Assembly (NCBI GenBank): GCA_043815505.1 | Contig: JBDRIV010000002.1 | Location: forward strand, 11,484-75,483 | Reading direction: 5' to 3' | DNA: 64,000 nucleotides | Origin: a bacterium | Lineage (GTDB): Bacteria; Patescibacteriota; JABMPQ01; JBDRIV01 | Part shown: in pieces, positions 1 to 50,974 of the stretch | How positions within the stretch are numbered: the first letter of the stretch is position 1 | Layout of the letters: each line of letters starts with the position of its first letter | Position numbers and translations under genes: made by a program | Notes under the pieces: model-generated | What the model saw: the letters and a program-made list of their open reading frames with translations, nothing else | What the model was told of the DNA's origin: nothing | Database searches by the model: none

Positions 1-830
1 TGGATTTGGAAACGGATAATTATTTCTAATTATCTCTTTGTGTCGCCACTCCCGTGACGCTTTTAACTTAAGCGAATCGGGATCCCAACTATTGTTGGGA
101 AAAGTTCGGACTATATCTTCCCTAGCTCAGTTTTAAAACTGAGGTCGAGTTCGGCATATAGTCTCTGAGGGTTTTTATAAAACAATCTTATTTCTGCGCC
201 GCTTTCCTTTTTGATTCATTTGATAAGCAAGTTTTAAAATTTGTTTAATGCCCTGGTTGTTTAAATGCTTTTTCTTATGAATAAGCTCAACAATTTGAGC
301 AAAGATCTTAAAATTTTGCCGTTTCTCTGTCAGAAGTTTATACCTACTGAAAAAAGGAATTATTTTATTGCGCAAATCCTCATGATTACGTACAACATAT
401 ACAAATGTTTTGTCCCGCTTGTTTAAACGATGATTGCACTTTATGTAGCCACAATCAAGTTTTTTTGTAAGCGCTTCAAGCACGTTTTTGCTATTTTGAT
501 GTTGACTGATATGGAATTCCGGAATTATCTTAATCTTTTGTTTCATATATGAATCTCGATAGATTGCAATATGAAAGCTTCCTTCCCCATCAGTTAACCC
601 AGCAATATAGTGAGGATTAATTTTCATAATTGATTGTTTATAAATCTTCCCTGCTGATTGTCTGCACTCAACACATTGTCACCTATTATTATAATAGGTA
701 GTGTGAGATTCTTCAACCCTCTATTCTCTATTAGGGTACAGAGTTTCCAGCATTTAGCCGAATTTATTGACAGCACGGTCGATAAATCTATTATGATTTC
801 TCTTTATTAAACGAAAAGATATTGAATTTA
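1..830 (-). mobile_element. 23S intron 1 (group-I-like), partial; follows exon sequence GAGACAGU (domain V, near E. coli ~2593); 3' splice site lies beyond the window start
   Basis: The exon match ends at plus 831-838 (actgtctc). No downstream exon sequence (UCGGUCCCUAUC) is found before position 1. Contains the LAGLIDADG ORF 175..627. Confidence 0.6.
175..627 (-). CDS. LAGLIDADG homing endonuclease, single-motif I-CreI-like type, intron-encoded
   Basis: N-terminal motif IAGLTDGEGSF in a 150-aa protein; located inside a 23S rRNA insertion. Confidence 0.8.
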   Translation of the reverse strand: MKINPHYIAGLTDGEGSFHIAIYRDSYMKQKIKIIPEFHISQHQNSKNVLEALTKKLDCGYIKCNHRLNKRDKTFVYVVRNHEDLRNKIIPFFSRYKLLTEKRQNFKIFAQIVELIHKKKHLNNQGIKQILKLAYQMNQKGKRRRNKIVL

Positions 831-1151: not shown

Positions 1152-1554
1152 TGCAGTAAAGCAAGCTTGTGCTTTTACACTATCGGTCCGATTTCCATCC
1201 GGACCTAGCTTACCTTGAAACGCCTCCGTTACTTTTTAGGAGGCAACCACCCCAGTTAAACTACCCACCAGACACTGTTTTCATTTCCTGATTCAAGGAA
1301 ACGAGTTAGCTATAAAACATTATTAAGCTGGTATCTCACTGATGACTCCTTTTGAGCTAGCGCTCAAAAATCAAAGTCTCCCAGCTATGCTGAATAAACA
1401 AAGCTTTACAGCAATGTCAAGCTGTAGTAAAGCTTCACGGGGTCTTTTCGTCTTGCTATAGGTGAACGGTATCTTTACCGCTATTACAATTTCACCGAAT
1501 CCTTCGTTGGAGACAGTCTTCAAGTCGTTATGCCATTCGTGCGGGTCGGAACTT

Positions 1555-2299
1555 CATGTTACCGATCGTTTTCACGATGGATCAGACTATATCTTCACCT
1601 TATTTAGAATACTTAGGAGTTTTGCAATTGGATGTTTTCTTTTTCCGCTTTCATTCATTTGGTAGGCCAAAGTTATTATTTGGCGCAAATGTTTAGTGTT
1701 GCGATGCTTGTTTTGTTTTACTAAGTCGCAGATTTTATAAAAGATTATAAAATCTTGTTTCTTAGAAGTTTGTAAACCAAACTTTTTGAAGTGCGGTATG
1801 ATTTTGTTGTTTAAATCAACAATTGATCTTACCTCATATTTGTAGCTCTGATCTTTTTTAGAAAATCTGATACTACCACAACCGAAGTATTTCTTTATTT
1901 TCTGCAAAATGTCTAAACTGCGACGATTTTGAGAAATTGAAAAACTTGGTCGAACTTCAATTTTGGTTTTCAATTTAGCACGCAAGCTAAATGATACGGT
2001 GAAACATCCTTCGCCATCTACAAATCCTGTTATGTATGATGCAAAATCCATATATTCCTTCGTTTTAATAAGGGCTGACGTATTTTCCATCTTATAAGGA
2101 CGGAACTTGTCTTTCGACTCAGTCGTTACGGGTTCCCAATTTATGGGATTCCCACGGTATTATCATATCGTATTCCAATTTTTTTGAAAAATGAAATGCG
2201 TTTTAGACTTCACCGTTATTAGTCAGTTTGCTTATATCGCATTACTGCGATATTCGGGCAAGTTTGCCTCGCTTAAACGAGGTCCAACCATTAAGTATT
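1555..2299 (-). mobile_element. 23S intron 2 (group-I-like) at the L1931-type site: GGGU | AAGUUCCGACC
   Basis: Exon sequence CGAAATTCCTTGTCGGGT maps to plus 2300-2317 and AAGTTCCGACCCGCACGAATGG to plus <=1554. The upstream exon ends in U and the intron ends in ...AACATG. Confidence 0.65.
1587..2090 (-). CDS. LAGLIDADG homing endonuclease, intron-encoded
   Basis: Motif ITGFVDGEGCFTVSF in a 167-aa protein, inside 23S intron 2. Confidence 0.8.
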   Translation of the reverse strand: MENTSALIKTKEYMDFASYITGFVDGEGCFTVSFSLRAKLKTKIEVRPSFSISQNRRSLDILQKIKKYFGCGSIRFSKKDQSYKYEVRSIVDLNNKIIPHFKKFGLQTSKKQDFIIFYKICDLVKQNKHRNTKHLRQIITLAYQMNESGKRKHPIAKLLSILNKVKI

Positions 2300-2319
2300 A
2301 CCCGACAAGGAATTTCGCT

Positions 2320-3033
2320 CATGTTTTGTTACTATCCCATTTTTTGGGACGGTTAAACATTTCTGCTTAACTCTCTATGTCGCCATAGAGTTCGGACTAT
2401 ATCTTTCCAGCTCCAGTTTTTTGAAACTGGGGCGGGACTTGGCGTGTAGTCTCTGAGGATTGCAAATATCTTGATGGCTTTTTACGATTCATGGTTTCAA
2501 TTATTCCAGCGATTTTTCTAACACCTTTTGATGTTAGATGTTCCCCTCTTTTTATTATTACAACTACTTTTACAAATTTATTAAAATCTTCTGATTTTGC
2601 AGTTTGTAAGCAGTTCTTTTTAAAGAAAGGAATTATCACTTCTGTTAAATCTTTTAAAGATCTAATACAAAAGCGATATAAATCTTCTTTGTGATTATCA
2701 TGTCGGCGATTTATGTAAAGTTTTCCACACCCGAAGAATTTTTGAATTCTTTTTAGTGCTGGTAAACTTTTGGCGCCTTGTGTTATCACAAATTCTGGGA
2801 ATATTTGCCAACCAGAACTCGTTGTTGGATTCTTATTAATACTTACAGAGAAGGTTCCTTCTCCATCAGTGAATCCTACTATCCATCCTATTTGCCTTTC
2901 CTGCTGATTGTCTGCACCGAGTTGATTTTTACTTGGCATATTGTTCATAATCTATGGAACATTTATACCATAGTACAATCGGATTCTCCAGATTTTCCAG
3001 CATTTGGTCAAGTTTTACTATGGCAGCTTTCCT
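2320..3033 (-). mobile_element. 23S intron 3 (group-I-like) at the L1923-type site: CCUAUGGU | AGCGAAAUUCC; separated from intron 2 by a ~20-nt mini-exon (2300-2319)
   Basis: Exon CGCCGGCAGTAACTATAACTGTCCTATGGT ends at plus 3034. The intron ends in ...AACATG, the same as intron 2. The 3' regions of introns 1 and 3 share a ~70-nt block (plus 105-175 vs 2388-2462). Confidence 0.65.
2397..2948 (-). CDS. LAGLIDADG homing endonuclease, intron-encoded; C-terminus overlaps a family-A palindrome
   Basis: Motif IVGFTDGEGTFSVSI in a 183-aa protein. The C-terminal residues ...QFQKTGAGKI are encoded by the palindrome ccagctccagttttttgaaactggggcggg. Confidence 0.8.
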   Translation of the reverse strand: MNNMPSKNQLGADNQQERQIGWIVGFTDGEGTFSVSINKNPTTSSGWQIFPEFVITQGAKSLPALKRIQKFFGCGKLYINRRHDNHKEDLYRFCIRSLKDLTEVIIPFFKKNCLQTAKSEDFNKFVKVVVIIKRGEHLTSKGVRKIAGIIETMNRKKPSRYLQSSETTRQVPPQFQKTGAGKI

Positions 3034-4324: not shown

Positions 4325-4425
4325 CCCAGCCCCAGTTTTATTGAACTCGGAATTTTGGAATTCGATAATGCTCAAATGATTCATTGAACATTAAAGATAT
4401 TGAGTTCAGCAAAACTGGGGCTAGG
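4325..4425. repeat. Family-A palindromic element (long form, ~100 bp) inserted in 23S domain II just 5' of GACCCGAAACC
   Basis: cccagccccagtttt ... gaactcgg ... ttgagttcagc ... aaaactggggctagg, with nested inverted repeats. Confidence 0.75.
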
Positions 4426-4513
4426 TCTCGCTTTCACTACGGCTCCGTCTAATAAAGACTTAGCCTTGCCACAGAGAATAACTCGTTGGCTCGTTCTGCA
4501 AAAAGCACGCGGT

Positions 4514-4622
4514 CACCCCGCTCCAGTTTTATAGAACTCGGAATTTAAAAATTCGATTATGCTAATAAGCAATTTATTAAGCTTAAAGCATTTTGAGTTC
4601 TGCAAAACAGGGGCGGGGCTCC
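4514..4622. repeat. Family-A palindromic element (long form), second copy inside 23S
   Basis: caccccgctccagtttt ... gaactcgg ... ttgagttctgc ... aaaacaggggcggggct; internal core similar to the 4325-4425 copy. Confidence 0.75.
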
Positions 4623-4713: not shown

Positions 4714-5171
4714 ATCACAAAGAGTATTTAGTCTTGGGAGAGTAGTTCTCCCAGCTTCCTACGGAATTCCACTCACTCCGTAGTACTTAAGAATAAAACC
4801 GTAAAGTTATAACAGATTTTCGAATACAGGACTATTACCTTCTTTGGTGGACCTTTCCAGGTCACTTCTTCTAATCAATATTATTTCTTTACCTCTTGTT
4901 TGTAGCCAAGAACATTTTATCTTGCAACACCCTATTTACAACGCCTACAAGCTTGAACATAAATAAGGTTTGGACTGATCCCGTTTCGCTCGCCGCTACT
5001 AAGGGAATAATTAGCTTGTAGCAAATGGCATAGGGCAAATAGTAAACTATAAGCCATTAGCCATAAGCTATAAGCAGTTTGATTTCTTTTCCTCCGGTTA
5101 CTAAGATGTTTCAGTTCACCGGGTTGTCTTCCAACATCCTATGAATTCAGATGCGGATCCCAGCTCCACTT

Positions 5172-5435
5172 TTAGCAATCAATTTTGCTGTGTTCTAATC
5201 TCTTTTTTAATTCATGAATAGAACTCCCATGACTTTTAAGTCTTTTTTCTCTGACAATCGCATCTTTTTTGTTACGATATGCTTCAGCATAAACCAAAAT
5301 CCATTTTTCACTCTTTCTCTTTGTAGAATGAACTTGATTTTTATTATGTTCAGAGAATCTTTTCTTAAGATTTTTTGTAATTCCAACATAAAATCTTTTG
5401 TCCCCAGAATGTTGAAGTAAATAAACAATAAACAT
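5172..5435 (-). CDS. GIY-YIG nuclease-domain protein (UPF0213/YhbQ-like, 87 aa) embedded in a variable helix of the 23S 5' domain
   Basis: Motifs YLLQ...KRFYVGITKNLKKRFSEHN match the GIY-YIG signature. The ORF sits between the 23S blocks CCGAATGGGCAAACCCC and GGTGAACTGAAACATCT, where E. coli has only ~60 nt. Confidence 0.6.
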   Translation of the reverse strand: MFIVYLLQHSGDKRFYVGITKNLKKRFSEHNKNQVHSTKRKSEKWILVYAEAYRNKKDAIVREKRLKSHGSSIHELKKRLEHSKIDC

Positions 5436-6410
5436 TCTTTGGTATTAATGACTAAAAGTGGGGCTGGGGGGTTTGCCCATTCGGAGATCCTCGGATCAAG
5501 GGTTGTTTGACACCTCCCCGAGGCTTATCGCAGACTACCACGTCCTTCATCGGCTCTTTGTGTCTAGGCATTCACCATACACTCTTACCTCTTAGGTTGA
5601 TAAGATTAACTAGCTATATGTATTGATATTCAATTGTGTAAAGTCCTATCATTTGTTTTCACATTGTTGAAGTTTTTAAAACTGCAATTATCTGAAAGCA
5701 AATGGGCAACTAAAAAACCGCTCGTCGCGGCTCAATTTACACAAGGAATTATGCGTTCTAAAAGGCCGCCTAAATATGAGTAGTTAATGATCTTTTTTTC
5801 ATACGATTTTCCTTATATATTTAGATGTTTATCTGGTACTACGACTCTTTGTAGTACTGAGTTTATCGTATGAGTAGTGTACTTATAATTTAAAATGTTG
5901 TCAAGGAACAACTTTTACGCGGTGTGGACTTCCTGTGTAAAAGTGGAACATTTAGGCTTAGAATAAGAAAAAGATTAGTTTGACAATATGTTTATTTAAG
6001 CATATTCTTAATAGATTTGTGGTATTGTAATATTAGGAGGATTTGTACATTAACATTTTTGTTTGTTCTAAAAATGGGCGTAACTAATTGTGGAGGAATA
6101 AGGAAACGATAAAAAAGAAATGATATTTTCAAAAAAACAGAAAATACTACTTAGGAGAATGTTAATGAAAAAATCTACAGAATCAAATTCATTGAAGCCA
6201 GATATTATTTCAGGAGCAATTTGTAAACAACTTCCCCCAATCTGTTATGAAAGCGAAACCAAAAAGAGGGAAAGAGTAACCCAGTCTTTTAATATTCAAA
6301 GATGGTATAACGATCTTTTTGGTTTTCCCAAAGATGGTTCAATTTCAATTAGGCGGTAGAGATGTATTGTGGCTACAGTATCATGAAATTAAAACCAAAG
6401 GAGGTGAGTT

Positions 6411-8776: not shown

Positions 8777-8929
8777 ATGTTGAATCTAAGTACTAAATCT
8801 TTTATTGACTAAGAGTCAGAATCGCTTACCCAGTCGTGCTGTGCGCGACTGTGGAAATCGCCTTATAAACATTTTAAACTCCTGGACTCAGAGCGAGAAT
8901 AAGAACTCCTTTTTAAAACATTTTGCCTC

Positions 8930-9003
8930 TGGACCCGGCCGGATTCGAACCGGCGGCCCCCTGCTTGCAAAGCAGGTGCTCTAGCCAACTGAGCTACGGG
9001 CCC
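8930..9003 (-). tRNA. tRNA-Ala(TGC)
   Basis: Reverse complement GGGCCCGTAGCTCAGTTGG...CTTTGCAAG...GGTTCGAATCC...CGGGTCCA has a G3:U70 pair and anticodon TGC. Confidence 0.9.
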
Positions 9004-9206
9004 AAAGGCAAAATGTTTTAAACCCCCTGGTCTTGCAAACAGTTTAATTTTCTATTGAAAATTAAACTGGGGGGTGCGTCTGCGGTTGAGCTACGAGCCC
9101 ATGGAAAAATGATTATAACTCCTGCAGTGTGACTTTGCTAAGGGCTGTTGGCAAATTGCAAATGGAAAACGTTAATTGCTATTAGCCACTCGCTATAAGC
9201 CAAATG

Positions 9207-9589: not shown

Positions 9590-9693
9590 AACTAATAATA
9601 CTTTATAAATTCCCCAGTGGGTGACCTGAAGATTTTCAGCCAGAGGCTGATCCGCCTTTGGCGGAGAACCTCGTCACTTAATACATCTCTCAG

Positions 9694-9767
9694 TGGGCGA
9701 TCGAGGATTTGAACCTCGGACCTCGTCATTATCAGTGACGCGCTCTAACCAACTGAGCTAATCGCCC
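9694..9767 (-). tRNA. tRNA-Ile(GAT)
   Basis: Reverse complement GGGCGATTAGCTCAGTTGGTTAGAGCGCGTCACTGATAATGACGAGGTCCGAGGTTCAAATCCTCGATCGCCCA. Confidence 0.9.
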
Positions 9768-9798
9768 ACTGAGAGATTTATCTTTTTATTATACATTA

Positions 9799-10026
9799 GG
9801 ATGATCACCCGTAGGGTGAGAATCTCGGACCTCGTCTCGTCCAAACAATACTTCAGTCTTCGCAATCCAACAAGTTGAATTGCTTCGACTTACGTATTGT
9901 TTCTCCTCTCCGATTAAAAACGTGCTCGTTCACTACGTTCACTGCGCACCATTTTTAATCGGTAACTGTTAAGTGACGCGCCTGCCTGCCGGCAGGCAGG
10001 CTCTAACCAACTGAGCAAACGTTGCC
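9799..10026 (-). pseudogene. tRNA-Ile-like paralog interrupted by a 19-nt GC hairpin in the D region and by family-D element copy B (9838-9962) in the anticodon loop
   Basis: 5' part GGCAACGTTTGCTCAGTTGGTTAGAGC[CTGCCTGCCGGCAGGCAGG]CGCGTCACTTAACAG... then the 125-nt element ... GACGAGGTCCGAG; T-arm region degenerate. Confidence 0.45.
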
Positions 10027-10146
10027 TAGGGCTAATAGCAAATAGCAAATGGCACTAAAATATAATTGCAATTAGCTATAAGCCATTCGCCATTCGCCAA
10101 CTAGTTTACCATTTACAAAGCCACTTTTCAAGAAAAAATTATGACA

Positions 10147-10205
10147 AACCCCGCCCCACCCCACTCCAGTTCTAATTAAAAACTGGGGCTGGGTGGAGCG
10201 GGGTT
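10147..10205. repeat. Family-A palindrome (short form) between the 16S 3' end and the tRNA-Ile paralog
   Basis: aaccccgccccaccccactccagttctaattaaaaactggggctgggtggagcggggtt. Confidence 0.7.
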
Positions 10206-10445
10206 ATCTTTTGACATTTAAATAGTGATAGGAGCAGATTGACATGTCATGAATGAATTCATGAAAGTCGACCTTCGGGTATGCTTGCTTATTAAACAAG
10301 CGGATATTCCCTAGAAAGGAGGTGATCCATCCACAGCTTCCGCTACGGATGCCTTGTTACGACTTTGCCCCTCTCGCTGGGCCCACCTTCGGTCCTAGAA
10401 CTAGGAACTTCGGGTGTTCCCAACTCGCTTGACATGACGGGCGGT

Positions 10446-11371
10446 ATCGAGATCCAAATTGGTCTCACACCACTGGGCAAACGGTTTTACCGTACCCTAG
10501 CGGTTCCACGAATATTATTCAGCTTGCGAATTTTATTTCGCAAAGAAACAATTTTTTTAAATCCAACATCGGTTAGATGCTGTTTGGATTTAATTAACAT
10601 AACTGCTTCACAAAATAATTCATAAACCAAACGCTTTTTAGCTCTCAACTTGTAACGGTTGAAGAAGGGAATTATTTTTTCACTCAAATCATTTATATTG
10701 CTCACTTTATATTTGACATGCGGATGCCATTTATAACGAGCATAATTTAAGCGATAGATATTTCCGCAACCAAAAGCATTTTTAATTTGGTTTAGGATTT
10801 CTTCATCATCGGCGCGGAGTTCTATTTCAAACTCTGCCCTAACTTCTTGTCGGCGTTTCAAGGTTTGATGTTTGCTGATACTAATACAGAAACATCCTTC
10901 CCCGTCAACGAAACCGACAATATATTCGGGATGAAGATTATTATTTTCGTGGTTCGGTCCTTTTCCCGCTCCAGTTTGTTTTAAACTGGGGCTGGATACT
11001 ACGACCTCTGCTGACTTCTTGTATTGCATCGTCATAATATTGCTATTATGTCTTAATTCTCGTGGGGTTTGCACCCCGAGGTTATTATACCTCAAAACAA
11101 GAATACAATACAAGATCTCCCTGGGTCACCTTATAAACCGTTCTTTCTCATCTCGGCTTTCCTGCACTTTAGTTTCCAAATTTACAGAAGACTTCCCTAC
11201 GTACACGAAAGGTCGTCGTTGAAACTAAAGCCTAAACGAAAGCTCAAGCTAAGAAATGCTACTTTTACCCTTGTTCCCAAACCTCACGATTTGGGACTGT
11301 AATTTCGCTTCCCAGTTTCTGCAAACTGGGGTGTGATTTTAACACACTGGTTTATAAAATTGCCAGGCGCA
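10446..11371 (-). mobile_element. 16S intron (group-I-like) inserted within CUUGUACAC / ACCGCCCGUCA (E. coli ~1395-1400)
   Basis: Exon matches stop at plus 11372 (gtgtacaag) and resume at plus 10445 (gacatgacgggcggt). Contains a LAGLIDADG ORF. The exact splice junction is ambiguous by +/-3 nt. Confidence 0.6.
10487..11113 (-). CDS. LAGLIDADG homing endonuclease, encoded in the 16S intron
   Basis: Motif IVGFVDGEGCFCISI in a 208-aa protein. Family-A palindrome cccgctccagtttgttttaaactggggctgg lies in-frame at 10958-10994 and encodes KQTGAGKG. Confidence 0.8.
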   Translation of the reverse strand: MYCILVLRYNNLGVQTPRELRHNSNIMTMQYKKSAEVVVSSPSLKQTGAGKGPNHENNNLHPEYIVGFVDGEGCFCISISKHQTLKRRQEVRAEFEIELRADDEEILNQIKNAFGCGNIYRLNYARYKWHPHVKYKVSNINDLSEKIIPFFNRYKLRAKKRLVYELFCEAVMLIKSKQHLTDVGFKKIVSLRNKIRKLNNIRGTARVR

Positions 11372-11520
11372 AGTGTACAAGACCCGAGAACGTATTCACC
11401 GCGCTATAGCTGACGCGCGGTTACTAGCGATTCCAACTTCATGAGGGCGAATTGCAGCCCTCAATCCGAACTGAGACTGGGTTTGATGAGATTAGCTTCA
11501 TCTTGCGATTTCGCAACTCA

Positions 11521-11854: not shown

Positions 11855-12284
11855 TAGTCTTGCGACCGTACTCCCCAGGCGGAATACTTAACGCGTTAGC
11901 TTCGGCACTAAAAGGGTCGAATCTCCTAGTGCCTAGTATTCATCGTTTACAGCGTGGACTACTGGGGTATCTAATCCCATTCGCTCCCCACGCTTTCGTC
12001 CTTGAGTGTCGGAATACAGCTAGCAGACTGCCTTCGCTATTGGTGTTCTTCCCGATATTAACGCATTTCACTACTACACCGGGAATTCCATCTGCCTCTC
12101 TGTTTCCCTAGTCTGGCAGTTTTCGAAACGAGCTTTAGGTTAGGCCTAAAGATTTAATTCCAAACTTACCAAACGACCTGCGGACGCTTTACGCCCAATG
12201 ATTCCGGATAACGCTTGCCACCCTCGTATTACCGCGGCTGCTGGCACGAGGTTAGCCGTGGCTTATTCCAATGGTACCGTCAAC

Positions 12285-12346
12285 CCAGCTTCAGTTTGGA
12301 ATCAAATCAAAAAAGAATTCAGTTTTGATTACAAACTGAGGCTGGG
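12285..12346. repeat. Family-A-like palindrome inserted in the 16S V3 region
   Basis: cccagcttcagtttgg...ttacaaactgaggctggg, between the 16S blocks ...ACGGTACCATTGG and the 515 region. Confidence 0.65.
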
Positions 12347-22584: not shown

Positions 22585-22592
22585 ACAATTGA

Positions 22593-22705
22593 CCCGATAG
22601 TACAACCGAACTTAGATTTTAAAAAATTTATTTATTAAAAAGCTAAAATATATAAAATATTAAAAATAATAATAATCATCATCATCAGTTGTACTACCGA
22701 GTTGA
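22593..22705. repeat. Family-C inverted-repeat element (cccgatagtacaac ... gttgtactaccgag), abutting the rpsP promoter
   Basis: 13-14-nt inverted repeats flank ~80 bp of AT-rich DNA and are directly followed by TTGACA. Confidence 0.7.
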
Positions 22706-22729
22706 CATCGCTAGCTAAATAAGTATAAT
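22702..22729 (+). promoter_or_regulatory. Sigma-70-type promoter for rpsP: TTGACA - 16 nt - TATAAT
   Basis: ttgacatcgctagctaaataagtataat. Confidence 0.55.
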
Positions 22730-23295: not shown

Positions 23296-23397
23296 TCCCC
23301 GCTTCAGTTTTTTAGAACTCGACACAATATAGTTATGTAATTCTAGAAGTAATTTTAAACTTAAAGAATTTGAGTTCAACAAAACTGAGGCGGGGTT
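23296..23397. repeat. Family-A palindromic element (long form) downstream of rpsP; likely acts as a terminator
   Basis: atccccgcttcagttttt ... gaactcgac ... ttgagttcaac ... aaaactgaggcggggttttt. Confidence 0.75.
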
Positions 23398-23403
23398 TTT
23401 GTT

Positions 23404-23512
23404 GACCTGGTAGTACAATTTTCTATAATAAGTATCTTAAAATTAATCTTGTTCAAATTTCATATAAAAGTCCCAAGAACAAAACAATGGAATTTGTACT
23501 ACCAGGTTGACT
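23404..23512. repeat. Family-C inverted-repeat element (gacctggtagtacaa ... ttgtactaccaggttgac)
   Basis: Inverted repeats flank an AT-rich core; TTGACT at the distal end. Confidence 0.7.
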
Positions 23513-23638
23513 AAAATTAGCATTTTTGCTATGGTAATCTCGATACTCAAGTACTTAAAAGACGCGGAACTTGGTCGAACAAAACGCAATTTTGAGGAAA
23601 GATATCAGCTATCAGTTTAAGTATTAAGATAAACTTGT

Positions 23639-33710: not shown

Positions 33711-33814
33711 AACCCCGCTCCAGTTTTATTTAACTCAGAATATTGTTCATTAATGTTGGGAAATTTGTTATAAAAAACATTAATGATTTGAGTTCAATAG
33801 AACTGGAGCGGGGC
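33711..33814. repeat. Family-A palindromic element (long form) upstream of pilB
   Basis: aaccccgctccagtttt ... aactcagaa ... ttgagttcaat ... aactggagcggggcg. Confidence 0.75.
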
Positions 33815-33828
33815 GAAAATTATAAAAT

Positions 33829-34053
33829 TTATCTTTTAGGTTTCTCCGAGAAAAAATAATATGCAAACGCCAGAAGCAATAGGATTACCAAAGCAATTGT
33901 TACAATAACAAACCATTTAGCATCATTTGCAGCTTGATTAGGATCAATAATTTCAGGAATATTTAGTCTAGCATCACCATCTGATTGAGCTTTGACCGGT
34001 AGAGCTAGAAAAGTGAATAGTATTAAATAAATTGAGGTAATGATCTTTTTCAT
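33829..34053 (-). CDS. Small secreted/membrane protein (74 aa)
   Basis: Signal peptide plus a C-terminal TM segment. Confidence 0.4.
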   Translation of the reverse strand: MKKIITSIYLILFTFLALPVKAQSDGDARLNIPEIIDPNQAANDAKWFVIVTIALVILLLLAFAYYFFSEKPKR

Positions 34054-39090: not shown

Positions 39091-39259
39091 CTCCTTGTAT
39101 TTTCAATTAGTATAATTGTAACAAATTTCTTGGTATCGGGAAAGTGTAATAAATTTGACGAAAAAATACCGCCGAGTATAATGAAAACAAAAGTGCCCAC
39201 ACAGAAACAAAAAAATTGGCACTTTTTCAATACCTTGGTCCAAATTTGTCCGAAAGGAG

Positions 39260-39631
39260 GTGAGAACGTTGAATTGTTGTACTAGTGACAGAAAAACCGA
39301 AAATCGCTGGATTGATTGGAGTCAGTTGATTCCACGTGTCACTCATCTGCCAATAGGTCGTTATGACCCTTGCCCTCGGTGCAATCGAGGCACGGAAAAG
39401 AAGGTGGTTCGGGGCAAACTGAGGTCCGTGCCTACGCACGGTGATTTCATGGTTTGTCCCTTGTGCCAGCAGGTTTTCTGCAGTGCTTGTTTCTTGAGCG
39501 ATCCAACACGTCTCACAAACATATTCTTGCTCAAAACAAGTCGTCTGAAATCGCTTGGCGCTTCCGTCAATACTGCAGTTCCTTGTCCGGACTGCAAAGA
39601 GATTGTCGATCTCAACGGCCCAAAAAATTAG
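39260..39631 (+). CDS. GC-rich small zinc-ribbon protein (123 aa, GTG start)
   Basis: SD aaggagg 6 nt upstream; CPRC ... CPLC and CPDC pairs; local GC is about 50% against a background near 35%; followed by a terminator. Confidence 0.45.
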   Translation: MRTLNCCTSDRKTENRWIDWSQLIPRVTHLPIGRYDPCPRCNRGTEKKVVRGKLRSVPTHGDFMVCPLCQQVFCSACFLSDPTRLTNIFLLKTSRLKSLGASVNTAVPCPDCKEIVDLNGPKN

Positions 39632-39671
39632 AGGGGTTTGGTAAATGAAAACCAAAATAAACGGACCTTAT

Positions 39672-39706
39672 GTCGCGTTGCTAGATTCTACCGCAACGCG
39701 ACTTTT
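39672..39706 (+). terminator. Rho-independent terminator
   Basis: gtcgcgttgc ... gcaacgcgac followed by tttttt. Confidence 0.6.
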
Positions 39707-39938
39707 TTATTAGTTTACTTTTTAGAAAAGTAACAAAAGCTTTCTTTTTCCACCATTTGCTTGCCCAAATGGTGGAGCCAAAGGGCACAACCGGGGATTC
39801 GGCTTGAAACTTCCACTTTCTTTTTCCACTTTTTGGCAGCAAAAACTGGAGGAAAAACTGCCTCGCGGTGGTTGATTTTTGAAGATCACTATCAGCTCGA
39901 CCCTGCCCGCCTGATGGCGGGCTCATTAATTTCCTAAA

Positions 39939-39974
39939 CTCCCCAGCTCCAGTTTTGCGAAAACTGGGGCTGAG
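39939..39974. repeat. Family-A palindrome (short form)
   Basis: ccccagctccagttttgcgaaaactggggctgag. Confidence 0.7.
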
Positions 39975-50374: not shown

Positions 50375-50632
50375 ATGGCAAAATATAAAGTGGAATTTGA
50401 TCGGGAAACTTGCATTGGTGCTCTGCCCTGCAATTCAGTTGCCCCAGACGAATTCCCTATTGCGGAGGATAAAAAAGCAGATTTAGCAGGAGGCAAAAAA
50501 AATGACGGCAATGGTTGGTTTGAACTGGACATTAATGAAGATAAATTAGAAAAATATAAATCAGCTGCTGAAGTTTGTCCCGTCAACGCCATTCATGTGA
50601 CTAACATTGAAACCGGCGAAAAAATTATCTAA
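50375..50632 (+). CDS. Small ferredoxin
   Basis: CIGALPC ... CPVNAIH cysteine pattern in an 85-aa protein. Confidence 0.6.
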   Translation: MAKYKVEFDRETCIGALPCNSVAPDEFPIAEDKKADLAGGKKNDGNGWFELDINEDKLEKYKSAAEVCPVNAIHVTNIETGEKII

Positions 50633-50640
50633 AATAATAA

Positions 50641-50749
50641 AAACCCCGCCCCAGTTTTGCAAAACTCAAAAAATCAAAATTTAATTATGCTAAAAAGCAA
50701 TTTCTAAGCTTAAAGCATCTGAGTTCAATAAAGCTGGAGCGGGGTTTTT
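50641..50749. repeat. Family-A palindromic element (long form) downstream of the ferredoxin gene
   Basis: aaaccccgccccagtttt ... aactcaaaa ... tgagttcaat ... aagctggagcggggttttt. Confidence 0.75.
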
Positions 50750-50800: not shown

Positions 50801-50974
50801 CCCGGTAGTACAACAAGTGTTATGTTACTGGGAGATATGATTTAAAATAGTAGTTGTACTACCGGGATGCCCAGTAGTACAATTGGGTGAAAAATATTAG
50901 AAGTAACTCTATTTATAAAGTTGTATAAATAGAAAGGTTATCAAATCATTTAAACAGTAAGTTGTCCTACTGAG
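50801..50974. repeat. Two tandem family-C inverted-repeat elements (50801-50866 and 50870-50974)
   Basis: cccggtagtacaa ... ttgtactaccggg, then atgcccagtagtacaa ... ttgtcctactgagatgccc. The ATGCCC junction is duplicated and forms the start codon of the next gene. Confidence 0.65.

What the first reader, a model, noticed from the sequence alone, without database searches (positions are those of the whole stretch)
4325..4622. Family-A palindromic elements (CCCCGCYCCAGTTTT...AAAACTGGRGCGGGG) inserted in rRNA, introns, homing-endonuclease ORFs and intergenic terminator positions
At least 13 copies exist: 117-150, 2409-2445, 4325-4425, 4514-4622, 10147-10205, 10958-10994, 11297-11333, 12285-12346, 23296-23397, 33711-33814, 39939-39974, 45041-45143 and 50641-50749. 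Short hairpin forms (~35-60 nt) and long ~105-nt forms share termini, and the long forms share an internal GAACTCGG...TTGAGTTCA inverted repeat. This is MITE- or REP-like behaviour. Two long copies sit inside 23S domain II and one inside 16S V3. Two short copies lie in-frame inside LAGLIDADG ORFs, where they encode a -TGAGK- peptide. Intergenic copies sit exactly where Rho-independent terminators would be expected, after rpsP, the FG-GAP gene and the ferredoxin gene.
Basis: seen in the sequence. Interest (0 to 1): 0.75.

Follow-up and report, generated by a model that had tools for sequence, protein, structure and literature searches.

The report
Hairpin repeats tied to GIY-YIG nuclease
A family of GC-rich hairpin repeats scattered through the rRNA genes, introns and gene ends of an ultra-small (CPR/Patescibacteria) bacterium shares its ends with a small nuclease gene cassette that sits in structured-RNA genes of several other CPR bacteria, so the unexplained short rRNA insertions of this group look like copies of a mobile hairpin element.

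Summary
The repeat family is real. The 15-nt arm CCCCGCYCCAGTTTT occurs 21 times at up to 2 mismatches, against 0.15 expected, almost always as inverted pairs. Five ~100-nt copies also share interior sequence.

The window comes from a Patescibacteria (CPR) MAG. Copies extend hairpin tips of 23S (H25 and E. coli ~630-650) and 16S (h17/V3). Others sit in intron stems and the 16S-tRNA spacer. Four lie 8-15 nt after stop codons, followed by T5 runs.

A 310-nt insert in 23S helix 9 (5159-5468) has the same arms and encloses an 87-aa GIY-YIG nuclease ORF.

Of eight further cassettes fetched from other CPR assemblies (43-64% identical proteins), seven have arms, five of this type. They lie in 23S H63, RNase P RNA and intergenic DNA. 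One other CPR 23S also carries four ORF-less copies.

Best reading: a MITE/REP-like hairpin element whose nuclease-bearing form resembles, in gene layout, the Ssn nuclease/hairpin-repeat system. Copies persist where a long hairpin is harmless (rRNA helix tips, IVS-like) or useful (terminators).

Mobility and nuclease activity are inferred. No target-site duplications or empty sites were found. I rate it a new variant of a known kind.

The parts
5159..5468 (-). ORF-bearing member: a 310-nt insert at the tip of 23S helix 9 (between E. coli 130 and 157), bounded by arms CCCAGCYCCACTTTT / AAAAGTGGRGCTGGG.
   Evidence: Arm hits. Rfam alignment shows a 298-nt insert in the H9 hairpin. E. coli mapping. 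Aligns over 311 nt at 64.6% identity to the L043 cassette.
5172..5435 (-). 87-aa single-domain GIY-YIG nuclease ORF. Its stop codon lies in the 3' arm.
   Evidence: Pfam PF01541 at E 7.9e-17. Model pLDDT 80. Nearest solved structures are UPF0213 BH0048 and Slx1. The catalytic-type residues Y5, R26, H30 and E63 are invariant in A2.
4516..4618 (.). Long ORF-less copy (arms CCCCGC type) at the tip of 23S helix 25.
   Evidence: Rfam places the insert in the loop of the hairpin at model positions 572-600. Fold -42.3 kcal/mol, z -6.9.
4325..4425 (.). Long ORF-less copy (arms CCCAGC type) in 23S domain II, E. coli ~630-650.
   Evidence: Rfam shows a 115-nt insert at model positions 684-694. Fold -47.9 kcal/mol, z -9.4. 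L043 carries a copy in the same region.
12284..12346 (.). 62-nt copy at the tip of 16S helix 17 (V3).
   Evidence: Rfam shows a 54-nt insert at model positions ~457-465. Arms CCCAGCTTCAGTTTG / CAAACTGAGGCTGGG. Fold z -6.9.
10147..10205 (.). Nested double hairpin (outer CCCCGCTCCACC, inner CCCAGCCCCAGTTTT) in the spacer about 110 nt after the true 16S 3' end.
   Evidence: Fold -44.8 kcal/mol, z -7.9.
10958..10994 (.). Short hairpin inside the 927-nt 16S intron. The N-terminal leader of LAGLIDADG ORF 10487-11113 reads through it.
   Evidence: It overlaps the Rfam group-II-D1D4-1 hit at 10957-11055, so it may be a native intron stem.
11297..11333 (.). Weak member: a hairpin in the 5' part of the 16S intron that shares only CCCAGTTT/AAACTGGG.
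   Evidence: Not recovered at up to 3 mismatches to the 15-mer.
2406..2437 (.). Short hairpin at a P8-like position of a 23S intron. The last codons of LAGLIDADG ORF 2397-2948 read through it.
   Evidence: Its flanks are homologous to those of 117-150.
117..150 (.). Degenerate short hairpin at the homologous position of a related 23S intron.
23297..23395 (+). Long copy starting 8 nt after the rpsP stop codon and followed by TTTTTG. Terminator position.
   Evidence: Fold z -8.1. A promoter match at 23402-23429 follows.
33713..33813 (-). Long copy starting 15 nt after the stop of small ORF 33829-34053(-), followed by TTTTTG and then the pilB promoter match.
   Evidence: Promoter match at 33700-33671. 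Fold z -9.0.
39942..39974 (.). Short copy in the non-coding stretch between tRNA-Arg and ORF 39260-39631.
   Evidence: Fold z -3.7. No clear T-run follows it.
45044..45140 (+). Long copy with family-A arms but an unrelated interior. It starts 15 nt after the stop of the FG-GAP gene and TCGTTTTT follows it.
   Evidence: Fold -50.6 kcal/mol, z -10.9.
50644..50744 (+). Long copy starting 11 nt after the stop of ferredoxin-like ORF 50375-50632. It is flanked by AAAAA and TTTTT.
   Evidence: Fold z -6.8.
42125..42142 (-). Possible minimal relative: an 18-nt terminator hairpin, CCCGCTC-AAAT-GAGCGGG plus T7, with the same outer stem as family A.
   Evidence: Its relationship to the family is inferred from 7 shared stem bases only.

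Best explanation
Family A is a lineage-expanded set of ORF-less palindromic elements (MITE/REP-like).

**The nuclease partner.** Their 15-nt arms are the same as the terminal inverted repeats that bound a ~310-nt cassette encoding a small single-domain GIY-YIG nuclease. One such cassette sits in this window's 23S helix 9. Related ones sit in 23S H63, RNase P RNA and intergenic DNA of other CPR bacteria.

**Likely mechanism (inferred).**
- The two arms pair into a GC-rich stem, probably in single-stranded DNA.
- The nuclease recognises or cuts at that stem, as the Ssn GIY-YIG nucleases do with the hairpin repeats that flank their genes.
- Repair or recombination between hairpins that share the stem then copies the element to new hairpin-forming sites without a target duplication.

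**Where copies survive.** They persist only where a long hairpin is harmless or useful.
- At the tips of surface helices of rRNA and peripheral intron stems, they either stay as helix extensions or are cut out like RNase III-processed intervening sequences.
- Just after stop codons, the GC-rich stem plus T-run acts as an intrinsic terminator.

**Shown versus inferred.** Shown: the family, its positions, arm complementarity with compensatory changes, and the arm-nuclease association across genomes. Inferred: mobility, nuclease specificity, RNA processing and terminator activity.
For: **The family is real.**
- Arms occur 21 times against 0.15 expected.
- Interiors of five long copies are homologous.
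- The hairpins are very stable.
- 7 of 15 arm pairs show changes on both sides and 96.5% of cells are paired, a level no shuffle out of 500 reached.

**Link to the nuclease gene.**
- The GIY-YIG ORF at 5172-5435 lies between arms that differ by 1-2 nt from family A.
- Of the eight further cassettes fetched (proteins 43-64% identical), seven are arm-bounded. Five have arms of the family-A type:
  - L034 and L037: 23S H63, CCCAGCACCACTTT.
  - L043: 23S H63, TCCAGCCTCAGTTTTGTGTT, 20/20 complementary.
  - L045: inside RNase P RNA, TCCAGCCCCAGTTTTAGGTAT, 21/21 complementary.
  - L040: intergenic, CCCAGCCCCAGTTTT.
- The other two arm-bounded cassettes are L038 (23S H63; right arm CAAAACTGGGGAGGGA, left arm more diverged) and L039 (23S H63; arms share only the outer CCCAGC).
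- The same arms plus ORF therefore occur at four or more different kinds of site.
- L043's 23S also carries four ORF-less 105-124-nt copies with identical arms.

**Distribution fits tolerance, not targeting.**
- Copy density per non-protein-coding kb is the same inside the rRNA operon (0.87/kb) and outside it (0.78/kb).
- No copy lies in 44.8 kb of ordinary coding sequence.

**Terminator and orientation features.**
- Four copies have terminator features.
- 9-10 of 10 orientable copies point the same way on the + strand, whatever the direction of transcription. This fits a single-strand, replication-linked process.

**Literature.**
- GIY-YIG-encoding and short non-intron insertions in CPR rRNA are reported but left uncharacterised (PMC11270868).
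- Ssn nucleases bind and cut ssDNA at hairpin repeats that flank their genes and are dispersed in the genome (PMC11893778).
Against: - No target-site duplication and no shared flank at any copy.
- No empty orthologous site was obtained. The closest relative found is only 69% identical in RNase Y, and its 21.5 kb carries no copy.
- The interiors of the ORF-less copies show no significant similarity to the nuclease cassette. Derivation by internal deletion is therefore not shown.
- The published Ssn-related hairpin motif does not match family A.
- The two arms flank the ORF as one long-range inverted repeat, not as two self-contained hairpins as in Ssn.
- One homologous GIY-YIG gene (L035, beside tmRNA) has no such arms.
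- The outer 4-6 bp of the arms coincide with native rRNA stems, so part of the 'arm' could be target sequence.
- Only 64 kb of the source genome could be examined.
Confidence: 0.6

Rival explanations
1. Family A is a REP-like or terminator-derived hairpin family. It spreads or homogenises by recombination or template switching between GC-rich stems, independently of any dedicated enzyme. The GIY-YIG gene is a separate selfish gene that homes into the loops of such hairpins, so the hairpins are its targets and not its derivatives.
For: - ORF-less interiors are unrelated to the ORF cassette and are lineage-specific.
- A minimal terminator shares the outer stem.
- Outer arm bases overlap native rRNA stems.
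- A GIY-YIG gene without arms exists (L035).
- The intergenic CCCCGC subfamily is seen only in this genome.
Against: - Arms of 15-21 nt travel with the ORF to unrelated sites in organisms whose flanks otherwise lack family-A hairpins. L045 and L040 each have only the ORF-bearing copy in 12-20 kb.
- The window cassette arms carry CCAC/GTGG, as L034 and L037 do, and unlike every ORF-less copy in its own genome.
Confidence: 0.22
2. The rRNA copies are ordinary bacterial intervening sequences or expansion segments. The intergenic copies are ordinary intrinsic terminators. The shared sequence reflects selection for one RNA stem, for example an RNase III site or a protein-binding site, and not mobility.
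For: - The H9 and H25 tips are classical IVS sites, and CPR short insertions at such sites were proposed to be IVSs (PMC11270868).
- The arms form 15-bp or longer GC-rich duplexes.
- Covariation preserves the pairing.
- T-runs follow four copies.
Against: - Homology extends through ~70 nt of interior between rRNA and intergenic copies. Convergence on a stem does not explain this.
- Identical arms occur in RNase P RNA, in 23S H9, H63, H25 and other helices, and in intergenic DNA of different phyla-level lineages.
- Orientation follows the DNA strand, not the transcript. In several rRNA copies the transcript therefore carries a C-A mismatch where the + strand has a T-G wobble.
Confidence: 0.12
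3. Chance hairpins or an assembly artefact.
For: None beyond the fact that the source is a metagenome-assembled genome.
Against: - 21 arm hits against 0.15 expected.
- The same arms occur in independent ENA, JGI, Logan and NCBI assemblies.
Confidence: 0.01

Closest known systems
Ssn nucleases and their hairpin repeats (NTS/SRM) (Chenal et al. 2025, PMC11893778)
   Same: - A roughly 90-aa single-domain GIY-YIG protein. SsnA is 94 aa with Y6, Y17 and E64; here 87 aa with Y5 and E63 invariant and Y16 nearly so.
- Its gene is bracketed by hairpin-forming repeats that are also dispersed through the genome, mostly outside genes and often at gene ends.
- The repeats have an orientation.
   Different: - The published SRM search motif does not match.
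- The two arms pair with each other across the ORF instead of each being a hairpin.
- Copies colonise rRNA, RNase P RNA and introns.
- The host is CPR, which that paper does not mention.
- Assignment to the Ssn clade (cd10448) could not be tested. The nearest solved structures are UPF0213 and Slx1.
Non-intron GIY-YIG insertions and short uncharacterised insertions in CPR rRNA genes (Tsurumaki et al. 2024, PMC11270868)
   Same: This is the same phenomenon. That paper reports GIY-YIG ORFs in rRNA insertions that are not introns and are scattered over several sites. It also reports many ORF-less insertions under 200 bp at IVS-like sites.
   Different: That paper does not mention inverted repeats, palindromes or hairpins. 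It does not report that the ORF-less and ORF-bearing insertions share arms. It does not report copies in RNase P RNA, introns or intergenic terminator positions.
Bacterial 23S rRNA intervening sequences (Salmonella, Leptospira, Coxiella, Campylobacter, Rhizobiales)
   Same: Extra stem-loops at the tips of H9 and H25, closed by complementary termini. Some carry a small ORF. They are thought to be horizontally mobile.
   Different: - The classical ORF is the S23p/IVP protein, not GIY-YIG.
- Classical IVSs are not members of a genome-wide repeat family.
- Excision by RNase III is untested here.
MITEs and REP/BIME elements with their RAYT transposases; Rickettsia palindromic elements (my knowledge, plus the discussion in PMC11893778)
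   Same: Short, dispersed, hairpin-forming non-coding repeats, often at gene 3' ends. A protein gene is flanked by the same repeats (the REP-RAYT layout).
   Different: - No target-site duplication.
- The partner is a nuclease-only GIY-YIG protein, not a DDE or HUH transposase.
- Unlike Rickettsia elements, no copies lie in ordinary protein-coding genes.
Organellar mobile palindromes (yeast mitochondrial GC clusters, Allomyces double-hairpin elements, green-algal mitochondrial palindromes such as Lobosphaera, PMC4524435)
   Same: GC-rich palindromes in an AT-rich small genome. They land in variable rRNA regions, introns and spacers, next to homing-endonuclease genes.
   Different: This is a bacterial host, the sequences are unrelated, and here there is a specific nuclease gene bounded by the same arms.

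Membership tests
MITE (miniature inverted-repeat transposable element) | Terminal inverted repeats; small, non-coding; many dispersed copies | tested here: met
   15-nt arms, 35-109 nt elements and at least 12 copies in 64 kb.
MITE (miniature inverted-repeat transposable element) | Target-site duplication flanking each copy | tested here: not met
   No direct repeat and no common flank at any copy in the window or in L043.
MITE (miniature inverted-repeat transposable element) | A longer element with the same termini that encodes the transposase | tested here: inconclusive
   A longer element with the same arms exists (5159-5468 and six or more in other assemblies). It encodes a GIY-YIG nuclease, which is not a known transposase. 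The interiors are unrelated.
REP/BIME with RAYT | Associated HUH (IS200/IS605-like) tyrosine transposase flanked by the repeats | tested here: not met
   No such ORF among the Pfam-scanned ORFs of the window. The flanked gene is GIY-YIG.
REP/BIME with RAYT | Short extragenic palindromes concentrated at gene 3' ends | tested here: met
   All five copies outside the rRNA operon are extragenic. Four lie 8-15 nt after a stop codon.
Ssn nuclease / SRM hairpin system | Single-domain GIY-YIG protein of about 90-100 aa with intact catalytic residues | tested here: met
   87 aa, covered almost entirely by PF01541. Y5, R26, H30 and E63 are invariant in A2. The GIY-YIG fold is modelled.
Ssn nuclease / SRM hairpin system | Protein belongs to the cd10448 clade | not testable with these tools
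   No CDD model or SsnA sequence was available and afdb50 was not installed. The nearest PDB matches are UPF0213 and Slx1.
Ssn nuclease / SRM hairpin system | Gene flanked on both sides by the repeat, which is also dispersed in the genome | tested here: met
   Arms lie on both sides in the window and in L034, L037, L038, L040, L043 and L045. There are at least 12 further copies in the window.
Ssn nuclease / SRM hairpin system | Repeat matches the SRM motif HGTCWY..YYVSBRH..WNVSBRG..RNCYNB | tested here: not met
   One chance-level hit in the window (in 16S, not a family-A copy) and none in L043, L045 or L039.
Ssn nuclease / SRM hairpin system | Site-specific cleavage of single-stranded DNA next to the hairpin | not testable with these tools
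   This needs biochemistry.
Bacterial 23S rRNA intervening sequence (IVS) | Extra stem-loop at the tip of a variable helix (H9, H25, H45), closed by complementary termini | tested here: met
   H9 (5159-5468) and H25 (4516-4618).
Bacterial 23S rRNA intervening sequence (IVS) | Excised by RNase III without religation, giving fragmented rRNA | not testable with these tools
   No RNA data. No RNase III gene lies in the window.
Group I / group II intron with homing endonuclease | Ribozyme core around the ORF | tested here: not met
   No intron family matched at 5159-5468 or in any long copy at Rfam gathering thresholds. Tsurumaki et al. also find GIY-YIG insertions to be non-intron (PMC11270868).
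Rickettsia palindromic elements | In-frame insertion within ordinary protein-coding genes | tested here: not met
   No copies in 44.8 kb of ordinary coding sequence. Only the ends of two intron ORFs run through hairpins.
Intrinsic (Rho-independent) terminator | GC-rich stem followed at once by a T-run, just downstream of a stop codon | tested here: met
   Copies 23297, 33713, 45044 and 50644. Copy 39942 does not meet it. Termination itself is not testable here.

The most novel reading that the evidence does not exclude
The arms plus the GIY-YIG gene form a previously unrecognised kind of bacterial mobile element. It would be nuclease-only, hairpin-defined and free of target duplication, and would be widespread in CPR bacteria. 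On this reading it specifically seeds hairpin tips of structured-RNA genes (16S, 23S, RNase P RNA, introns) and terminators. Its ORF-less offspring would be the origin of many of the unexplained short rRNA insertions or expansion segments of CPR ribosomes.
Probability: 0.35. Interest if true: 0.85.

Novelty: new variant of a known kind. Interest (0 to 1): 0.68.

Why it matters
**An open question in CPR biology.** CPR/Patescibacteria rRNA genes are unusually full of insertions. Introns with LAGLIDADG genes explain many of them. The short ORF-less insertions and the GIY-YIG-bearing ones have been left 'uncharacterised' (PMC11270868).

**What this finding offers.**
- It ties both classes to one hairpin element family with a candidate enzyme.
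- It shows that the same element also lands in RNase P RNA, introns and gene ends.
- It gives a simple testable substrate-enzyme pair: a 15-bp arm hairpin and an 87-aa nuclease.

**If confirmed,** it would extend the recently described Ssn-type nuclease/hairpin-repeat logic to a very different bacterial group. It would also show how selfish hairpins can become rRNA expansion segments and terminators.

**Practical consequences.** Such nucleases are candidate sequence- and structure-specific ssDNA tools. The repeats also explain why CPR rRNA operons assemble and amplify poorly.

Tried and rejected
1. **Public scans with a long-form pattern.** I scanned GTDB genome contigs and JGI metagenome contigs with GAACTCA-N55-85-AAAACTGRRGCKGGG. 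The 12 and 18 hits were all non-palindromic chance matches. An arms-only pattern would have been better.
2. **Source contig.** It could not be fetched. There is no exact-protein record, so only 64 kb of the 567-kb contig was examined.
3. **Closest relative.** The closest relative found (69% RNase Y identity; L032, 21.5 kb) has no arm match at up to 3 mismatches and no comparable hairpins.
4. **Internal-deletion origin.** I tested whether the ORF-less interiors are deletion derivatives of the GIY-YIG cassette. Local alignment against shuffles gave one marginal result (p 0.007) in 12 tests, so the idea is rejected as unsupported.
5. **DNA-uptake-sequence idea.** The arm almost never occurs singly, so this is rejected.
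6. **Ssn SRM motif.** No match.
7. **Other collections.** tblastn of the nuclease against plasmids found nothing. Arm patterns in viral contigs found nothing.
8. **NCBIfam.** Only sub-threshold UvrC and intron-endonuclease hits.
9. **afdb50 fold search.** Not available.
10. **Arm versus ORF conservation.** My first pairwise figures had L040 mis-registered. With the register corrected by hand, arms are about 0.84 identical against 0.74 for interiors. That difference is too small to argue from.
11. **A script error of mine.** My first script wrongly reported 'no arms' for L040-L042. This was corrected.
Full report
**What the window is**

- Rfam finds a bacterial rRNA operon on the minus strand (23S, tRNA-Ala, tRNA-Ile, 16S) plus five other tRNAs.
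- GC content is 31-44%.
- Pfam shows RNase Y, CdaA, YmdB, type IV pilus genes, PFOR, four LAGLIDADG ORFs and one GIY-YIG ORF.
- RNase Y is 100% identical to a protein of an NCBI MAG labelled '[bacterium]' on a 567-kb contig. The next relatives are 57-69% identical and, where named, are Patescibacteria/Parcubacteria-group bacteria. The source is therefore a CPR bacterium.
- The 16S carries a 927-nt intron (11372-10446, after E. coli position 1397) and really ends near 10316.
- The 23S carries three introns with LAGLIDADG ORFs and runs off the left end of the window. The Rfam end at 783 is forced.

**Checking the observation**

- The arm CCCCGCYCCAGTTTT occurs 21 times at up to 2 mismatches, against 0.15 expected. 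At up to 3 mismatches only scattered singletons are added, so the motif exists essentially only as inverted pairs.
Five align through about 70 nt of interior, including the GAACTC/GAGTTC second stem. Copy 45041 shares only the arms.
- All folded copies form hairpins far more stable than shuffles, with z from -3.7 to -10.9.
- I built an alignment of arm pairs from 17 distinct copies, from the window and other loci. In it 96.5% of cells are paired, and 7 of 15 pairs carry changes on both sides. Examples are C-G to A-T at position 4, C-G to T-A at position 8 and G-C to C-G at position 11. No shuffle out of 500 reached these values.
- Two listed copies (117-150 and 11297-11333) are weak.
- 117-150 and 2409-2445 occupy the same hairpin of two homologous introns, between conserved GAGACTAYAYGCC and AGATATAGTCCGAAC. 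I read this as a P8-like stem between the P7 strands of a group I intron. That reading rests on my own knowledge, because no intron model matched.

**Where the copies sit**

- 4516-4618 lies in the terminal loop of 23S helix 25.
- 4325-4425 lies in a small domain II hairpin near E. coli 630-650.
- 12284-12346 lies at the tip of 16S h17, the V3 region.
- 10147-10205 is a nested double hairpin in the spacer after 16S.
- 10958-10994 and 11297-11333 lie in the 16S intron. The first overlaps an Rfam group II D1-D4 match.
- Outside the operon, four copies start 8-15 nt after a stop codon and are followed by a T5 run: rpsP, the small ORF 33829-34053, the FG-GAP gene and a ferredoxin-like ORF.
- Strong promoter matches follow two of these four.
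- Density per non-protein-coding kb is 0.87 in the operon and 0.78 elsewhere. No copy lies in 44.8 kb of ordinary coding sequence. The family is therefore not drawn to rRNA as such. It is found wherever sequence is not translated.
- The two 'in-frame' cases are the C-terminal tail and the N-terminal leader of intron ORFs, outside the LAGLIDADG domain.

**The missed member**

The arm search also returned a pair at 5159-5173 and 5454-5468. This is a 310-nt insert at the tip of 23S helix 9. It consists of the two arms (CCCAGCYCCACTTTT), an 18-nt leader and an 87-aa ORF whose stop codon lies in the 3' arm. The ORF is a GIY-YIG domain at E 7.9e-17. A model with pLDDT 80 shows the GIY-YIG fold. The nearest solved structures are the UPF0213 proteins BH0048 and EF2693, followed by Slx1.

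**Relatives elsewhere**

A word-indexed search found 7 homologs. A profile search found 4,386 at E up to 1e-8. I fetched the DNA of eight further cassettes.

| Locus | Site | Arms |
|---|---|---|
| L034, L037, L038, L039 | 23S helix 63 (E. coli ~1703-1770) | CCCAGCACCACTTTG; CCCAGCACCACTTTTTGGTCT; TCCCTCCCCAATTTTG/CAAAACTGGGGAGGGA; CCCAGCCGTAAATTTAGTC |
| L043 (GCA_041550235.1) | 23S helix 63 | TCCAGCCTCAGTTTTGTGTT, 20/20 complementary |
| L045 (GCA_040384245.1, GC 47%) | Inside the RNase P RNA gene | TCCAGCCCCAGTTTTAGGTAT, 21/21 complementary |
| L040 (also seen in L041, L042) | Intergenic DNA | CCCAGCCCCAGTTTT, perfect |
| L035 | Beside tmRNA | None |

- L043's 23S carries four further ORF-less copies of 105-124 nt with identical arms, at other helices. 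A fifth, related element lies in the 23S-5S spacer.
- The window cassette aligns with the L043 cassette over 311 nt at 64.6% identity.
- The arms and the ORF therefore travel together between unrelated sites and lineages. ORF-less copies with the same arms accompany them in at least two genomes.
- In L043, L045 and L040 no arms occur in the flanking protein-coding DNA. The spread to gene ends, with the CCCCGC arm subtype, therefore looks like an expansion particular to the window's genome.

**How it probably works**

*Shown.* This is a hairpin-defined repeat family. Its arms are shared with a nuclease cassette. Pairing is maintained by compensatory change. Copies sit at hairpin tips of structured RNAs and at 3' ends.

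*Inferred, DNA level.* There are no target-site duplications and no shared flanks. In the window, 9-10 of 10 orientable copies point the same way on the + strand, although they are transcribed from both strands. The orientation markers are the interior alignment and a recurrent T (left arm) / G (right arm) wobble at arm position 7. Both features are typical of elements handled as single-stranded hairpins during replication, such as IS200/IS605 and REP-RAYT (my knowledge).

They also fit the Ssn family. Ssn proteins are single-domain GIY-YIG nucleases of about 94 aa. They bind hairpin repeats only as ssDNA, cut next to them in one orientation, and are encoded between copies of their own repeat (PMC11893778).

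I therefore propose that the CPR nuclease recognises the stem formed by the arms, and that repair or recombination between stems copies the element. The outer 4-6 bp of the arms coincide with the native stems of H9, H25 and h17. This would supply microhomology at both ends of a palindromic donor.

*Inferred, RNA level.* A perfect GC-rich duplex of 15-21 bp at a helix tip can either be tolerated as an extension or be cut out like an RNase III-processed IVS. Tsurumaki et al. suggest the latter for short CPR insertions (PMC11270868). After stop codons the same stem plus T-run has the sequence features of an intrinsic terminator.

**Comparison with what is known**

- Tsurumaki et al. (2024) catalogued CPR rRNA insertions. 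They noted that GIY-YIG ORFs lie in non-intron insertions at scattered sites, and that many insertions under 200 bp are uncharacterised. Their text does not contain the words palindrome, inverted repeat or hairpin.
- The Ssn paper does not mention CPR or rRNA, and its SRM motif does not match family A.
- Literature searches combining CPR, GIY-YIG, hairpins and repeats found nothing closer.
- I therefore file this as a new variant of a known kind. It has an Ssn/REP-like nuclease-plus-hairpin-repeat layout. The repeats double as IVS-like rRNA insertions, intron stems and terminators in CPR bacteria.
- It fails the MITE criterion of target-site duplication, the REP criterion of a RAYT partner and the SRM sequence motif. 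Membership of the Ssn protein clade could not be tested.

**Limits**

- Only 64 kb of the source genome was available.
- No close relative was found for an empty-site comparison.
- No RNA data or biochemistry is available.
- The mobility model is an inference.

Noticed in passing
window 22592-22702, 23396-23516, 50801-50882: A second palindromic family (CCCGGTAGTACAAC...GTTGTACTACCGGG). Two copies abut near-perfect sigma-70-like promoter matches (22702-22729 at 12/12, 23402-23429 at 11/12). One lies directly after a family-A copy. This family may carry or create promoters.
   Followed up: partly
window ~5008-5083 and ~10040-10105: A third hairpin family (GCTTATAGCTTATGGCTAATGGC...GCCATTTGCTACAAGC). 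It forms a 71-nt insert in 23S between E. coli positions 227 and 233, and has a relative in the 16S-tRNA-Ile spacer.
   Followed up: no
window 8912-9022, 9681-9781, 40941-41044; L039 4301-4437: tRNA-Ala, tRNA-Ile and tRNA-Lys each lie inside a 21-26-nt inverted repeat that extends the acceptor stem. The 5S gene of another CPR contig is framed the same way. These are possible precursor-processing stems.
   Followed up: no
window 9843-9902 and 40276-40339: Two related 29-30-nt-arm hairpins lie just upstream of tRNA-Ile and tRNA-Arg on the minus strand.
   Followed up: no
window 10446-11372: The 16S gene has a 927-nt intron after E. coli position 1397. It carries a LAGLIDADG ORF and an Rfam group II D1-D4 match, which suggests a LAGLIDADG-carrying group II intron. 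The Rfam 16S end at 11296 is wrong; the true 3' end is near 10316.
   Followed up: partly
window 1-817 and 1554-3028: There are three 23S introns with single-domain LAGLIDADG ORFs, near E. coli positions 1938, 1952 and 2617. The 23S gene continues beyond the left end of the window, and the Rfam end at 783 is forced.
   Followed up: partly
L045 9910-10539: An RNase P RNA gene of 630 nt (the model is 367 nt) is interrupted by a 307-nt GIY-YIG cassette. The RNA must either tolerate or excise this insert.
   Followed up: partly
L040 5974-6278 and 6650-8059: The intergenic GIY-YIG cassette lies about 370 nt from a bAvd plus reverse-transcriptase pair, the layout of a diversity-generating retroelement.
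   Followed up: no
window 39100-40190: About 1.1 kb has a GC content of about 42% and no convincing gene apart from a Cys-rich ORF (39260-39631, weak IBR match). It holds several hairpins, including the short family-A copy. An unrecognised RNA gene is possible.
   Followed up: no
L043 7525-7557 and 11030-11063; L039 7602-7630: Short perfect hairpins of the form ATTCCC...GGGAAT resemble the core of the Neisseria dRS3/NTS repeat described in PMC11893778. They did not match the published SRM pattern.
   Followed up: partly
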